A DNA stretch of 64,000 nt, from positions 4,987-68,986 of the forward strand of contig CAZMZE010000021.1 in the NCBI GenBank assembly GCA_964570875.1, read 5' to 3'. The position numbers and the translations under genes were made by a program. The notes beneath the pieces are model-generated. The model was given only the letters and a program-made list of their open reading frames with translations, made no database searches and was not told where the DNA came from. The stretch's first letter is position 1, and each line of letters starts with the position of its first letter. The stretch is from an uncultured Dehalococcoidia bacterium. GTDB lineage: Bacteria; Chloroflexota; Dehalococcoidia; Lucifugimonadales; CATQGZ01. Below are positions 6,806-31,408 of this stretch, piece by piece.

Positions 6806-9800
6806 ATGATACTAAGAAACACAATAAATCCCATAAAATTGATACGTGATTTTGACTTCTCAGCTAAATCTGATAGTGATTTAGAGAATAGGCTTAGAGC
6901 TTTAATACAATCTTCAGCTAATAGGAAAACACAGACTTTTGAACCATATGCGATTATAGCCGAAATTATTGACCGAAAACTCGGGATATGGAAAATATTT
7001 GAATCCACAACGAACGTCGGTCCCTTAAATAAATATCTAACACTTGCACAGATACTAAGGTCAAAAGCTCCATTTAAAAACCATATTGAATACGACAAAG
7101 ACCCTCGATTTTTTGATAGCAAATCGTTTACAGAATCCTTAGAACCCATTCTGAACAAGTGGAGATTAAATTCAGCGGAAAAGAATGTAGTCAAAACTTT
7201 GATATACGTTGGAGAACAAGTTGGTACCCACAAGGCAAATATTTATTTACCTGGGCAATTTTACCAATCGTTCAGAAATTTAGACGTGGAAGATATGTTC
7301 TCTTTCCGCATCACAGATTCGCAACTTATGTCTGCGCTGATGGTCTACGATGGGTCCATCGTAGAATTGGATGCAGGAGAGGGCAAAACCGTTTCTGCTG
7401 GTATTCCTGCACTTATACATGCTCTAAACGGCAAATCCGTCCACGTAATTACATCCAACGACTATTTGGCCAAAAGAGACTGCGAACTGCTTTCCCAAAT
7501 GTACAACTCGGTTGGTGTTTCATCTGGATATATCCAAAACCATATGGAAAACCGAGAGAGACAAATTGTCTATCATAAAGATATCGTTTACAGCACAATC
7601 AGAGAAATCGGTTTCGACTACCTCAGAGACAATATTTCAACTGAATCCGGATCCGCAGTTACAAACTCCCTTGAAATAGCTATTGTTGATGAAGCAGATC
7701 ACATCCTTATTGACCAAGTTCTCTCACCCCTCATAATTTCGGGGGAATCTATAACCAATCGCAGAGCATTCAAAAAATCCCATGAGTTTATAAAAGAAAT
7801 CTTGTATCTCCAAAAACAGGTTGTAAAACAATTGGAAGTTGAAGCAACCGATGCAAAATACTCGAAAAACTTTACATCAATCCTGGCAAAACTAGCTTTG
7901 GCCGACCCGAGAAACTATCTACTCAAAGACAAAATTATTGATGCCAAGATGAGAAAACTAATCACAGAAATATTGGAATCAGTTACTTTTGACGACCAAC
8001 CTAGCTCTCCACAAGACCCATATTTCATCGTGGAGTCAAATTTCACATCAGTAATGTTGACTCGCCGTGGGCAAGAATTACTGGAACTCAGACTCGGCAA
8101 CATATTTGACCTTGGTGAAGATTTGTCATACGAGTCATCTGAAGAAACTCTCAGGCGAAACGACTTGCAATATTCAAGAATCAACCAAATTCACCAGTTA
8201 TTAAGAGCATACGTACTTTTACGTAAAAACTTTGACTATGTTGTAACTGGCGGAAAGATTGTTTTGGTTGACCAAATGACAGGACGTACTCTGCCCGATA
8301 ATCGATTCCAACATGATTTACACGCAGCATTAGAAGCTAAAGAAAACCTAGAAATACTAGACCAATACGAAACTGTTGCTCAAATCTCCATCCCTGGACT
8401 TGTTGGCAGATATCAACAGATTTCAGGACTTACCGGAACAGCTATATCAGCTCGAGATGAATTCACTCGGATGTATGGATTATCAGTTAAAAAAATACCT
8501 CCATCCATGTTCTCTCTTCGAGTCGACAAAGAAAGCCAAATAGCATCAAATAAAGTAGGGAAATTCCGTTCAATCATAGACAGCACCCGGGCGGCAAACA
8601 ATGTTGGCCGCCCAGTCCTAATAGGCACTAACTCTGTAGCTGAATCTTACGAACTCAGCACTGCTCTCAAAAATCATGGCATAGACCATATGTTATTGAA
8701 CGCTATCAATGATTCAGAAGAGACAAGAATCGTAAGAGACGCCGGGAACCTAGGGTCAGTGACCATAGCTACCAATATGGCAGGACGTGGGACCGACATT
8801 GTAGTAAAACCAGATATCAATAAAGCTATTGTCAATCGATATACGGAGTTAGTCACTGACCTGTTTAATAATGGCGCTACTGAAGTAAATATTAAATGCG
8901 GGACAGAATCAGAATACGAAGTACTTAAAACCGTACTATCTCAATCTCACTATACATACAAACCCAACAAATCCTTGAAATTTCATAATTTCAGTTTAAC
9001 GGTTCTTCCAAACCCAATTTCACATTCTCACAAGAAACATCTAGACCCGATGTCTCTTGGAAAAACCGGCCAAAAAGCCATCACATTATGGAGCACCGTT
9101 TTGAGTATCTCCTTGGACAAAATATTGTCCATAACAAATCATCTCAATCAAATCACCAAAGATAGACCCTCAGCCAGATACCAAATTGATTTTGGTCTTG
9201 GGATGTTGGTGATTGGAACAGAATTGAACAAATCTCGGAGAGTGGATGACCAACTCAGAGGGCGTACAGCAAGACAGGGATCATTCGGGGCCACAAAATT
9301 TGTACTTTCCTTGAAGGATCTCCCCCTTGATAAATATGGTGCATTTGGATTCAGTGGAAACGATAGCAACAATGGACATAGCATCAATAACTCACGTCAA
9401 ATTTCTAAGATTCAAAAACTACAAGATATTGTAGAGCAGCAAGAAAACCTAGACCGGGCATTCATCCAAAATTATTGGAAACTGATGGATCATCAGACCA
9501 TTTCATACTATTCAGCTCGCCAAGAAATTCTAGAATCATCTATTTTCCAAACCACATATCCAAAATTGGCACAAGTTTTTTCTAAAACAATTGTTGACAG
9601 GCATTTTCCTAAAATGCGCGTCCGAGATTACCAGAAGCAATTCCAGCAGATGAGCGCCGATGTCACAAAGTCTCTGAATTTGCCGATTTCTGATTTATAT
9701 GGTTCCCCTATTCCAGACTTACAAAGTGAACTGGCTATTCGCTTACTCAATTCAATTGATAAGGTAAACGCACAAATAGAACCTGAGCAAATTGACTACG

Positions 9801-10114
9801 TTGGTAAAACAGTCTTTTTACAAACTGCTGACAACCTTTGGAAAGAACATATGATACTGATGGAAAATCTATTTCAAAGTTTTTCGTCCGGCATGGATGG
9901 AATTGCTAACTCTTTGGCAAGATTTAAATTTGAGGCATTCCAAGAATATTGCAATTTCCAGGCACTAGTTATTGAGCAATTTTTATGTAATTTGGTTAAA
10001 TCAACAAATACAGACCATCTAGAGGATCGTCAACAATCAGTGCAACTCAGCACCGACATTCGATCAATGTTGGAATTTACTTTAATGAATGAAACAAAAA
10101 TGGAGGTGAATTGA
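6806..10114 (+). CDS. highly divergent SecA-like ATPase (SecA paralog, no SEC-C tail)
   Basis: 1102 aa. SecA hallmarks appear in order: [38 protein letters not shown] (cf. E. coli [38 protein letters not shown]), [77 protein letters not shown] and LWKEH. It has an N-terminal extension and a large NBD2 insertion, and ends ...NETKMEVN without a zinc finger. Confidence 0.85.
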   Translation: [1102 protein letters not shown]

Positions 10115-28687: not shown

Positions 28688-28882
28688 TTATACAATTACA
28701 GCATGGCATTTTTTGTACTTTTTACCACTCCCGCATGGGCACTTTTCATTACGTCCAACCTTCCGACCATTAGATTGGCTTTCAAAACGCTTCTGGGCTA
28801 TTGACTTGTCCAGACATTTTGCGCATGTGCAAGCTTGACCATGTTCTTCATGCCAATTACTACGCTCTTTACCAATAACCAT
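28688..28882 (-). CDS. small SEC-C motif (zinc-binding) protein
   Basis: 64 aa ending [18 protein letters not shown], the SEC-C metal-binding motif found at SecA C-termini. An additional CTCAKC lies upstream. Confidence 0.75.
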
Positions 28883-30680: not shown

Positions 30681-31175
30681 ATGGAATTTATCCTCAACCG
30701 ATATTCGTTCGTTTTAATATCTCTGATCATTTTGATAATATCTTTTTGGTTAGCCTCTCGTGTTGCAGGAACTATTATTTCTGTTTGCACAATGGGAATA
30801 ATTTTGTTTCTGCTAATCGGTTTTCAGCTGATTTTCAGTAGTCACTCAAATTCGATTGAGAGTGTCGAAGATTTAAACACCTCATTAAATCCGAATAAAC
30901 CCGTCTTAATCATGTTATATTCCAATTATTGAGTTGCTTGCCTTTCGGCAAAGCCTGAAGTTGACAGGCTAGAGTCTAAACTTAAAGACAATTTAGATGT
31001 AGTCAGGATCGATATCAGTTCGGAAGCTGGCAGACACCTCAGATCCAAATATGCAGCAAAAACTGTCCCAACTTTTCTTGTACTAGGTAGAGAAAGAGAC
31101 TTATTATTGTCCAAAAGAGGAATTGCGCCCAATTTAAAGGTTATATTGTCTCTCGATTTTAAATATCCTGAATAG
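30681..31175 (+). CDS. membrane-anchored thioredoxin-fold protein with in-frame TGA at the CxxC position (putative selenoprotein, U-V-A-C)
   Basis: The frame stays open across TGA 30930-30932 to TAG 31173-31175. Joined product: two N-terminal TM helices, then KPVLIMLYSNY-[TGA]-VACLSAKPEVDRLESKL...VVRIDISSE...KTVPTFLVLG..., a thioredoxin fold with the cis-Pro TVPT. The downstream half has no in-frame ATG or GTG of its own. Confidence 0.7.
30936..30969 (+). promoter_or_regulatory. candidate bacterial SECIS hairpin(s) downstream of the in-frame UGA
   Basis: Hairpin A (30936-30954): GCTTGCC-TTTC-GGCAAAGC, 7 bp with one bulged A. Hairpin B (30953-30969): GCCTG-AAGTTGA-CAGGC, 5 bp with a GUU-containing 7-nt loop that starts about 25 nt after the UGA. 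Confidence 0.45.
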
Positions 31176-31195: not shown

Positions 31196-31408
31196 ATGTC
31201 ATCAGCACCTAAATTTACCTGCGACAAATGTGGCAATACTGAATACAAAAGTGGTCAAATAAGAACTACAGGATCTGGTATCTCCAGATTTCTAAACCTC
31301 CAGAATCAAAAGTTTGAAACATTTTCATGCACTGAATGCGGTTATACCGAGTTGTTCCGTTCCGACGGGGGTGGTGTTGGTAACATTTTTGACGTACTAA
31401 GCGGCTAA
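31196..31408 (+). CDS. zinc-ribbon domain protein
   Basis: 70 aa with CDKCG...(36 aa)...CTECG cysteine pairs. AAGGAG RBS. Starts 20 nt after the thioredoxin-like gene. Confidence 0.7.
   Translation: MSSAPKFTCDKCGNTEYKSGQIRTTGSGISRFLNLQNQKFETFSCTECGYTELFRSDGGGVGNIFDVLSG

What the first reader, a model, noticed from the sequence alone, without database searches (positions are those of the whole stretch)
30681..31175. Unannotated selenoprotein: membrane-anchored thioredoxin-fold protein with TGA at the catalytic Cys (Y-U-V-A-C)
The track ORF ends at TGA 30930-30932, but the same frame runs on to TAG 31173-31175. The joined product is ...NPNKPVLIMLYSNY-[TGA]-VACLSAKPEVDRLESKLKDNLDVVRIDISSEAGRHLRSKYAAKTVPTFLVLGRERDLLLSKRGIAPNLKVILSL.... 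It has a thioredoxin signature: a beta strand, then aromatic-C-x-x-C, then an acidic/polar helix, then VxxVDxxx, then the cis-Pro T-V-P-T. The TGA sits exactly where the N-terminal nucleophilic Cys belongs. Neither half stands alone. The first 83 aa are just two TM helices plus a linker. The second half has no in-frame ATG or GTG; its first TTG is about 59 codons in. TGA is a genuine stop elsewhere in the window (for example the genes ending at 2739, 6097 and 10114), so recoding rather than an alternative code is needed. Hairpins follow the TGA (see the next finding). Sec-for-Cys thioredoxin-like and thiol-disulfide oxidoreductase families are known from marine metagenome selenoproteome surveys. 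Standard gene callers truncate them, as happened here. The antisense 68-aa ORF (30926-31132) is a shadow of this gene.
Basis: partly seen in the sequence, partly recalled or inferred. Interest (0 to 1): 0.85.

Follow-up and report, generated by a model that had tools for sequence, protein, structure and literature searches.

The report
Membrane-anchored selenocysteine thioredoxin-fold gene
The apparent stop codon in this small gene of a marine Dehalococcoidia (SAR202-like) bacterium almost certainly encodes selenocysteine at the active site of a membrane-anchored thioredoxin-like enzyme, which is a real gene that annotation truncates but belongs to a well-known class.

Summary
ORF 30681-30932 ends at TGA, and the same frame stays open to TAG 31173-31175. 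The joined 164-residue product has two transmembrane helices and a thioredoxin fold. The TGA falls on the nucleophilic Cys of the CxxC motif.

- **Not an error or a dead allele.** The same TGA occurs in 13 independent ocean metagenome contigs of this population. It also occurs in 27 of 33 diverged relatives, down to 26% identity; the other 6 carry TGT or TGC.
- **The downstream part is translated.** dN/dS after the TGA is 0.24-0.37.
- **A SECIS-like hairpin follows the TGA.** A 6-7 bp hairpin 23-41 nt after the U of UGA, with G-U in its loop, is kept in every TGA form through compensatory changes. The Cys forms lack it.
- **No change of genetic code.** TGA is the commonest true stop in the window.
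- **Host.** The host is a Chloroflexota/Dehalococcoidia bacterium, a class reported to include very selenoprotein-rich genomes.

Not shown: selA, selB, selD or tRNA-Sec in this genome, of which only about 84 kb was visible, and selenium incorporation.

Sec-containing thioredoxin-like proteins from marine metagenomes have been known since 2005, so this is a new member of a known kind. No curated model covers this two-helix subfamily.

The parts
30681..31175 (+). Complete selenoprotein gene: ATG 30681, Sec-TGA 30930-30932, true stop TAG 31173-31175; 164 residues
   Evidence: frame; Pfam PF00085 spans the TGA; same architecture in 13 population copies and 33 relatives; dN/dS 0.24-0.37 downstream of the TGA
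30684..30833 (+). Two transmembrane helices (residues 2-28 and 31-51), starting with the family motif N-x-Y-S-F. A short K/R-rich loop lies between them.
   Evidence: AlphaFold model. Hydropathy and K/R counts over the 38-member family alignment. N6 and S9 are nearly invariant.
30864..31148 (+). Thioredoxin-fold domain (residues about 62-156)
   Evidence: Pfam; beta-alpha-beta-alpha-beta-beta-alpha order, pLDDT about 85; Foldseek: thioredoxins and the DsbD C-terminal domain, TM-score normalised to target 0.7-0.78; profile against PDB
30930..30932 (+). UGA codon read as selenocysteine (residue 84), the attacking residue of the U-V-A-C motif
   Evidence: TGA in 27 of 33 relatives and TGT/TGC in 6. 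The column aligns with the first Cys of thioredoxin WCGPC. It lies at the N-terminal end of helix 85-101.
30939..30941 (+). TGC, the resolving Cys87 of the UxxC motif
   Evidence: Invariant in the 38-member alignment
30952..30970 (+). SECIS-like hairpin: stem AGCCUG/CAGGCU (30952-30957 with 30965-30970), loop AAGUUGA (30958-30964) holding the invariant G-U. It is encoded by the codons for K-P-E-V-D-R-L.
   Evidence: RNAalifold finds it de novo. 87% of cells are paired against 17-42% in slid controls, 4 of 7 pairs show compensatory changes, and 0 of 500 shuffles reach the score. Energy is -8.6 kcal/mol here and -3.0 to -10.7 in all TGA forms, against 0 to -2.7 in Cys forms.
30938..30951 (+). 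First hairpin UUGCC-UUUC-GGCAA. It is local to close relatives and probably not part of the conserved element.
   Evidence: Predicted. The one difference among close relatives falls in its loop. It is not conserved in diverged TGA forms.
31068..31070 (+). CCA, Pro130, the cis-proline of the thioredoxin fold (T-V-P-T)
   Evidence: Invariant in the family. Aligns with the I-P-T of thioredoxins.
30926..31132 (-). Antisense 68-residue ORF, a shadow of the gene and not a gene itself
   Evidence: It lies wholly inside the conserved, selected + strand frame. No independent evidence supports it.

Best explanation
This is one gene for a 164-residue membrane-anchored thiol-disulfide oxidoreductase whose catalytic nucleophile is selenocysteine.

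**Decoding (inferred).** The ribosome reaches UGA at 30930. The hairpin 20 nt further on (30952-30970, G-U in its loop) is bound by the Sec-specific elongation factor SelB carrying Sec-tRNA(Sec). Sec is inserted instead of termination, and translation runs on to TAG 31173.

**Protein.** Two N-terminal helices hold a thioredoxin-fold domain at the membrane. By the positive-inside rule the domain most likely faces outward.

**Chemistry (inferred from thioredoxin).** Sec84 attacks a substrate disulfide or oxidised sulfur. Cys87 then resolves the selenenylsulfide.

**Shown here:** the conserved TGA/Cys column, translation of the downstream half, the co-varying hairpin found only in TGA forms, the fold, and the two helices.

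**Inferred:** SelB-dependent decoding, the topology, the direction of the redox reaction and the substrate.
For: - **Real in the population.** The TGA and an intact downstream frame are present in 13 contigs from independent ocean samples.
- **Conserved TGA.** It is kept in two relatives at 82-83% identity, although the two codons before it changed synonymously. It is also kept in 27 of 33 metagenome relatives down to 26% identity.
- **Sec/Cys pairing.** Six loci have TGT or TGC. Among the cluster representatives retrieved from the search of 50%-identity clusters, 69 are full-length Cys forms and 16 are 'W' forms. The W forms and their close relatives that could be checked at DNA level carry TGA. 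Another 7 fragments end exactly before the site, and about 24 start just after it.
- **Downstream half is translated.** dN/dS is 0.24-0.37 at dS 0.36-0.51. Synonymous change is suppressed in the first 16 codons after the TGA.
- **Hairpin.** It is found de novo and shows compensatory changes. The synonymous third base of the Asp codon co-varies perfectly with the first base of the codon opposite it: G-C 13, A-U 8, Fisher p = 5e-6 without correction for phylogeny. The hairpin is absent in Cys forms.
- **Arg held by the RNA.** Arg, as AGG in most of the DNA rows examined, pairs with Pro CCU. It is present in 14 of 16 Sec forms but only 13 of 69 Cys forms.
- **Match to the published bacterial SECIS model** (PMC13188914, Fig. 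2). The window has a 6 bp stem, a 7 nt loop, 25 nt spacing and -8.6 kcal/mol.
- **Fold and active-site register**.
- **TGA is a normal stop here**.
- **Host.** PurL is 57-69% identical to Chloroflexota/Dehalococcoidia MAGs, including SAR202. Two Dehalococcoidia genomes are among the ten bacteria with the most selenoprotein genes, 49 and 46 (PMC13326102, Table 2). Chloroflexi selenoproteins and tRNA-Sec are on record (PMC1794560, PMC5389517).
Against: - No selA, selB, selD or tRNA-Sec was found in the sequence I could reach. This is weak evidence, because only about 84 kb of this genome was visible.
- In total about 2 Mb was searched, most of it from other genomes.
- No second selenoprotein candidate turned up in the window or in the flanks of relatives.
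- In the window the loop G is third, not first or second as the consensus model asks. Many relatives do satisfy this point.
- The hairpin is weak in the low-GC relatives (-3 kcal/mol).
- No Rfam SECIS model matches.
- The hairpin lies in conserved codons, so part of its conservation is protein-level.
- The outward topology rests only on charge counts.
Confidence: 0.88

Rival explanations
1. Programmed or leaky read-through of UGA with a standard amino acid, for example Trp or Cys from a near-cognate tRNA. This would give either a full-length non-seleno protein or a regulated mix of an 83-residue membrane peptide and the full protein.
For: No Sec machinery was seen in the reachable sequence. 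The downstream half is clearly translated, and read-through would explain that too. An RNA structure after a stop codon can also stimulate read-through.
Against: The TGA alternates only with Cys codons at the catalytic position of a CxxC motif. That pattern is the signature of Sec, not of read-through. The hairpin has the spacing, size and loop G-U of bacterial SECIS elements (PMC13188914). The host class is documented as Sec-rich (PMC13326102). Trp at the nucleophile position would give a dead enzyme, yet the resolving Cys stays invariant.
Confidence: 0.06
2. Nonsense pseudogene: a Cys-to-stop mutation in a decaying thioredoxin-like gene.
For: Gene callers report an 83-residue product. On its own the window shows only a stop codon.
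Against: The TGA is present in 13 independent samples and in 27 of 33 relatives across 26-98% identity. The downstream frame is always open for 76-84 codons wherever the contig runs that far. dN/dS downstream is 0.24-0.37. The resolving Cys and the cis-Pro are invariant.
Confidence: 0.02
3. The organism uses a genetic code in which TGA is a sense codon (table 4 or 25). Some database entries suggest this by showing W at the site.
For: Public protein predictions P0001-P0003 and 13 other cluster representatives show Trp here.
Against: TGA terminates 21 of 51 long ORFs in the window, at ends consistent with full-length family matches. Trp is encoded by 278 TGG codons. No other long ORF needs TGA read-through. 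The W arises because short contigs were called under a table-4 model, while long contigs give the 83-residue call.
Confidence: 0.01
4. Two separate genes: a small two-helix membrane protein, and a thioredoxin-domain protein started independently.
For: Some database entries are C-terminal fragments with their own predicted starts.
Against: The downstream part has no ATG or GTG, and its first TTG is at codon 59. The beta1 strand of the fold (residues 75-80) lies upstream of the TGA, so the domain is split by it. Cys forms are single 160-residue proteins.
Confidence: 0.01

Closest known systems
Sec-containing thioredoxin and 'Trx-like' UxxC selenoproteins of bacteria and marine metagenomes (Pfam PF00085 / COG0526; Sargasso Sea and GOS surveys, PMC1088965, PMC2398784; listed in PMC13188914)
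   Same: Thioredoxin fold. UxxC motif with Sec at the attacking position. Many Cys homologs. A SECIS hairpin directly after the UGA inside the coding region. Marine origin. Truncated by gene callers.
   Different: This subfamily has two N-terminal transmembrane helices with a conserved N-x-Y-S-F start. It matches no curated selenoprotein model in NCBIfam. I could not establish whether it equals one of the GOS 'Trx-like 1-3' groups, because their sequences were not in the held supplements.
Membrane-anchored extracytoplasmic thiol-disulfide oxidoreductases (TlpA, ResA, CcmG/DsbE; the C-terminal domain of DsbD; cyanobacterial TxlA/HCF164-type proteins)
   Same: A thioredoxin-fold CxxC domain tethered to the membrane and, by inference here, facing outward. 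The DsbD C-terminal domain is among the fold and profile matches. NCBIfam gives weak hits to TlpA, DsbD and slr1796.
   Different: All NCBIfam scores are far below the cut-offs (15-17 bits against 140-330). Those proteins use one signal-anchor helix or are domains of a larger transporter, whereas this one has a two-helix hairpin. No CcdA/DsbD partner gene lies nearby. Sec replaces Cys.
Escherichia coli fdhF-type bacterial SECIS and the consensus bSECIS model (PMC13188914, Fig. 2)
   Same: A hairpin in the coding sequence shortly after UGA. Small apical loop with G-U. Spacing of 25 nt (allowed 16-37). Stem 6 bp (allowed 4-16). Energy -8.6 kcal/mol (required at most -7.5).
   Different: In the window the G is the third loop base unless an A-A closing mismatch is accepted. 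In low-GC relatives the energy is only -3 kcal/mol. No sequence similarity to fdhF, and no Rfam hit.

Membership tests
Bacterial selenoprotein gene (criteria of Zhang, Fomenko and Gladyshev 2005, PMC1088965) | In-frame TGA conserved in at least two different homologous sequences | tested here: met
   TGA in 22 distinct sequences, in 27 of 33 metagenome loci, and in L002 and L003
Bacterial selenoprotein gene (criteria of Zhang, Fomenko and Gladyshev 2005, PMC1088965) | Cys-containing homologs with Cys aligned to the TGA | tested here: met
   TGT/TGC in 6 loci. 69 Cys-form cluster representatives.
Bacterial selenoprotein gene (criteria of Zhang, Fomenko and Gladyshev 2005, PMC1088965) | Coding potential continues after the TGA | tested here: met
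   76-84 open codons in all loci whose contig runs that far. dN/dS 0.24-0.37.
Bacterial selenoprotein gene (criteria of Zhang, Fomenko and Gladyshev 2005, PMC1088965) | Bacterial SECIS-like stem-loop directly downstream (stem 4-16 bp, loop 3-9 nt, 16-37 nt spacing, MFE at most -7.5 kcal/mol) | tested here: met
   Window: 6 bp stem, 7 nt loop, 25 nt spacing, -8.6 kcal/mol. Conserved with compensatory changes.
Bacterial selenoprotein gene (criteria of Zhang, Fomenko and Gladyshev 2005, PMC1088965) | [quoted passage not shown] | tested here: inconclusive
   The window loop is AAGUUGA, with G third, or second if A29-A35 is taken as a closing mismatch. Relatives with loops AGUUG, CGUGA, GUA and GUG meet the rule.
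Bacterial selenoprotein gene (criteria of Zhang, Fomenko and Gladyshev 2005, PMC1088965) | Sec machinery (selA, selB, selD, tRNA-Sec) in the same genome | not testable with these tools
   Only about 84 kb of this genome could be read, and none was found. The class Dehalococcoidia includes genomes with 46-49 selenoprotein genes (PMC13326102).
Bacterial selenoprotein gene (criteria of Zhang, Fomenko and Gladyshev 2005, PMC1088965) | Selenium actually incorporated at the UGA | not testable with these tools
   Needs 75Se labelling or mass spectrometry
Thioredoxin fold, Pfam PF00085 | Profile score above the curated cut-off | tested here: met
   35.4 bits against 23.5, residues 66-137
Thioredoxin fold, Pfam PF00085 | CxxC (here UxxC) at the N-terminus of helix alpha1, and a cis-Pro loop opposite | tested here: met
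   The site aligns to WCGPC and V-P-T aligns to I-P-T. Residue 84 precedes helix 85-101. C87 and P130 are invariant.
Thioredoxin fold, Pfam PF00085 | Three-dimensional similarity to solved thioredoxins | tested here: met
   Foldseek E = 3e-7 and weaker, TM-score normalised to target 0.7-0.78, against many thioredoxins. The model has pLDDT about 85 in this domain.
Curated Trx-like selenoprotein families of NCBIfam (SaoT NF040730, HUIPC NF047660, VPGUxxT NF041383, TsoB NF045694 and others) | Score above the family cut-off | tested here: not met
   The only hit is TsoB at 18.7 bits against a cut-off of 805. The others do not appear at E up to 0.01.
TlpA/ResA/CcmG-type or DsbD-type thiol:disulfide interchange proteins | Score above the NCBIfam cut-offs | tested here: not met
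   TlpA 16.8 against 230 and DsbD 15.4 against 330
GOS 'Trx-like 3' selenoprotein group (cd02950-like, UxxC; PMC2398784, Table 2) | Sequence identity with the published group | not testable with these tools
   No sequences of that group are in the held supplements. It resembles this family in its roughly equal numbers of Sec and Cys forms (212 against 183) and in its weak similarity to a membrane Trx-like family.

The most novel reading that the evidence does not exclude
This two-helix 'N-x-Y-S-F' anchored thioredoxin may be a distinct selenoprotein family that no catalogue yet lists separately. It would be an outward-facing Sec enzyme that is widespread in marine Dehalococcoidia/SAR202 and other lineages (contig GC content 34-72%). 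In ocean samples the Sec form outnumbers the Cys form. Its SECIS is built from the codons K-P-x-V-D-R-L, so the RNA structure dictates a protein residue: Arg is present in 14 of 16 Sec forms but only 13 of 69 Cys forms.
Probability: 0.4. Interest if true: 0.5.

Novelty: new member of a known kind. Interest (0 to 1): 0.38.

Why it matters
The gene is mis-annotated everywhere it occurs. On long contigs it is cut to an 83-residue membrane peptide. On short contigs it appears with a false Trp, because the gene caller switched to a table-4 model. Correcting it adds a selenoenzyme to the redox toolkit of SAR202-type Dehalococcoidia, which are abundant deep-ocean bacteria. It also gives a clean example of an RNA element constraining the protein sequence it overlaps. 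It does not change what is known about how selenocysteine is decoded.

Tried and rejected
- **First genome-contig scan.** The scan with the family alignment found nothing.
- **Search for Sec machinery.** I ran tblastn with E. coli SelA, SelB and SelD, and ARAGORN, over all sequence held at that point (about 2 Mb), then over loci L129-L134, which include the two 10-kb extensions beyond the window ends. Only PurL AIRS-domain hits to SelD appeared, and no tRNA-Sec.
- **Rfam.** Nothing at gathering threshold over the whole window, and nothing relevant at E up to 10 around the TGA.
- **Second selenoprotein.** None was found in the window or in the flanks of relatives. A HesB-like neighbour whose length differs between samples turned out to have a variable Gly/Cys tail, not a TGA.
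- **Conserved neighbourhood.** The GNAT, Zn-ribbon, ClpS and DUF3326 neighbours are shared only with near-identical contigs. A D-2-hydroxyacid dehydrogenase sits next to the gene in four diverged groups but not here. This gives no functional lead.
- **Profile search of the 90%-identity protein clusters.** The word-indexed search with the family profile returned only 9 proteins.
- **Matching to the GOS 'Trx-like' groups.** Their sequences are not in the held supplements.

Full report
**Observation.** The window holds an ATG at 30681 and an in-frame TGA at 30930-30932. The same frame stays open for 80 further codons to TAG 31173-31175. The downstream stretch has no in-frame ATG or GTG, and its first TTG is at codon 59. 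With Cys in place of the TGA, the joined 164-residue product scores 35.4 bits on Pfam Thioredoxin PF00085, above the cut-off of 23.5. The match covers residues 66-137 and therefore spans the TGA. This is the only convincing TGA-split ORF in the 64 kb.

**Not an error, a dead allele or a different code.**
- The 83-residue truncated product is called on 13 contigs from independent ocean metagenomes (station ALOHA, BATS and others). The ten of these that were shown (L004-L013) carry the TGA and an intact downstream frame, as do L001-L003.
- TGA is the commonest terminator of the window's 51 long ORFs: 21 TGA, 17 TAG and 13 TAA. Trp is encoded by 278 TGG codons. The genetic code is standard.
- The only close database proteins (P0001-P0003) show 'W' at the site, but their DNA has TGA. 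The W is a gene-calling artefact on short contigs.

**The downstream half is translated.** I compared the window with two relatives of 82-83% identity. dN/dS is 0.10 upstream of the TGA and 0.24-0.37 downstream, at dS 0.36-0.51. Synonymous change is suppressed in the 16 codons after the TGA: dS is 0.09-0.19 there, against 0.42-0.63 further on. The two codons just before the TGA changed synonymously (AAT TAT to AAC TAC), while the TGA and the 45 nt after it stayed fixed except for one loop base.

**Sec/Cys pairing across a real family.**
- A full HMMER search of 1.84 billion cluster representatives found 390 relatives at E up to 0.001.
- They form a family of about 160 residues with a conserved N-x-Y-S-F start, two hydrophobic helices and a thioredoxin domain. 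S81, C87 and P130 are invariant.
- At the TGA column the representatives I retrieved are 69 Cys, 16 'W' and 3 Ser. Another 7 fragments end exactly one residue before the site, and about 24 begin just after it.
- A metagenome scan gave DNA for 33 relatives of 26-98% identity. The codon is TGA in 27, TGT in 5 and TGC in 1. The frame is open for 76-84 codons afterwards wherever the contig runs that far.
- This meets the published criteria for a bacterial selenoprotein family (PMC1088965).

**The recoding signal.**
- In the window the minimum-free-energy fold after the TGA has two adjacent hairpins and a weaker third, but their energy alone is unremarkable (z = -1.5).
- Across 22 distinct TGA-bearing sequences, RNAalifold independently predicts only the second hairpin, at positions +23 to +41 from the U of UGA (window 30952-30970).
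- For that helix, 87% of cells are paired, against 17-42% when one arm is slid by 1-3 columns. Four of seven pairs show compensatory changes, and 0 of 500 column shuffles reach the covariation score.
- The clearest pair joins the first base of a variable codon to the synonymous third base of the Asp codon. It is G-C in 13 sequences, A-U in 8 and mismatched in 1 (Fisher p = 5e-6, not corrected for phylogeny). Selection on the protein cannot explain this.
- The hairpin folds in the same register in every TGA form, at -3.0 to -10.7 kcal/mol (-8.6 in the window). It does not form in the Cys forms, which give 0 to -2.7.
- Its 3' arm is the Arg codon, AGG in most rows, pairing with Pro CCU. Arg occupies that position in 14 of 16 Sec forms but only 13 of 69 Cys forms.
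- I checked the window against the consensus bacterial SECIS model (PMC13188914, Fig. 2). It meets the stem length (6 bp), loop length (7 nt), spacing (25 nt) and energy. The loop G is third rather than first or second, whereas many relatives have loops AGUUG, CGUGA, GUA or GUG that satisfy the rule.
- No Rfam model matches. This is expected, because Rfam's SECIS models are lineage-specific.

**The protein.**
- An AlphaFold model (mean pLDDT 74, about 85 in the domain) gives helices 2-28 and 31-51, then the thioredoxin order beta-alpha-beta-alpha-beta-beta-alpha. Residue 84 sits at the start of helix 85-101.
- Foldseek finds thioredoxins and the C-terminal domain of DsbD, with TM-scores normalised to target of 0.7-0.78.
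- A family profile aligns Y-S-N-Y-C-V-A-C on W-A-P-W-C-G-P-C, and V-P-T on the cis-Pro I-P-T of solved thioredoxins. The TGA therefore falls on the attacking cysteine, and Cys87 is the resolving one.
- The loop between the two helices carries about 2.4 Lys/Arg per sequence, against 0.4 in the N-terminal tail. The linker after helix 2 is net acidic. By the positive-inside rule the domain faces outward. This is an inference, not a demonstration.

**Host.** The window's PurL is 57-69% identical to Chloroflexota/Dehalococcoidia MAGs, including SAR202. The contigs come from open-ocean metagenomes. Chloroflexi are known Sec users (PMC1794560, PMC5389517). Two Dehalococcoidia genomes rank among the ten bacteria with the most selenoprotein genes, 49 and 46 (PMC13326102, Table 2).

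**What is missing.**
- I could read only about 84 kb of this genome: the window plus 10 kb beyond each end. It holds no selA, selB, selD or tRNA-Sec. This is uninformative for a genome of several megabases.
- No second selenoprotein candidate lies in the window or in the flanks of relatives.
- Gene neighbourhood gives no functional lead.

**Comparison with what is known.** Sec-containing thioredoxins and several 'Trx-like' UxxC groups have been described from bacteria and marine metagenomes since 2005 (PMC1088965, PMC2398784, PMC13188914). The mechanism and the kind of protein are therefore known. This subfamily has no dedicated Pfam or NCBIfam model and matches none of NCBI's curated selenoprotein families. 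I could not determine whether it equals one of the GOS Trx-like groups.

**Verdict.** This is a genuine selenocysteine-encoding thioredoxin-fold gene (confidence 0.88) and a new member of a known kind. It is of moderate interest, mainly as an annotation correction for an abundant ocean lineage and as a clear case of a SECIS constraining the residues it encodes.

Noticed in passing
L001:894-1388, L002:53-547, L003:289-771, and proteins P0004-P0014 and others: Public protein sets hold this family with Trp at the Sec site. The DNA has TGA. Short contigs were evidently called under a table-4 model, while long contigs give an 83-residue truncation. Other selenoproteins may be hidden in databases in the same way.
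   Followed up: yes
L132:8481-8840 and L133:1812-2249 (about 1.2 kb beyond the window's right end): A HesB/IscA-like (PF01521) gene ends in a tail made only of Gly and Cys, plus a final HGH. The tail is 26 residues longer in one sample than in another. It has no in-frame TGA.
   Followed up: partly
window 30964-30969 (Arg95 codon AGG at 30966-30968): The Arg of V-D-R-L-E is kept in 14 of 16 Sec forms but only 13 of 69 Cys forms. Its AGG codon forms the 3' arm of the hairpin, so the RNA structure appears to fix a protein residue.
   Followed up: yes
window 6806-10114 (+) and about 28688-28882 (-): A 1102-residue SecA-like protein has a large insertion in its DEAD motor domain and sits among ORFs with no family match. 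A separate 64-residue SEC-C motif protein lies near 28.7 kb.
   Followed up: no
L096:8886-9872, L105:8721-9698, L109:10792-11769, L117:8442-9419: In four diverged groups of relatives a D-isomer 2-hydroxyacid dehydrogenase gene lies next to the thioredoxin-like gene. It is not adjacent in the window.
   Followed up: partly
window 30938-30951: A first hairpin, UUGCC-UUUC-GGCAA, lies between the UGA and the conserved hairpin. It is present only in close relatives. Its one variant base falls in the loop.
   Followed up: partly
window 31196-31408 (+): A four-Cys zinc-ribbon protein (DUF2082, PF09855) starts 21 nt after the TAG and has its own AAGGAG site. It is likely co-transcribed with the selenoprotein gene. 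The pairing is seen only in near-identical contigs.
   Followed up: partly
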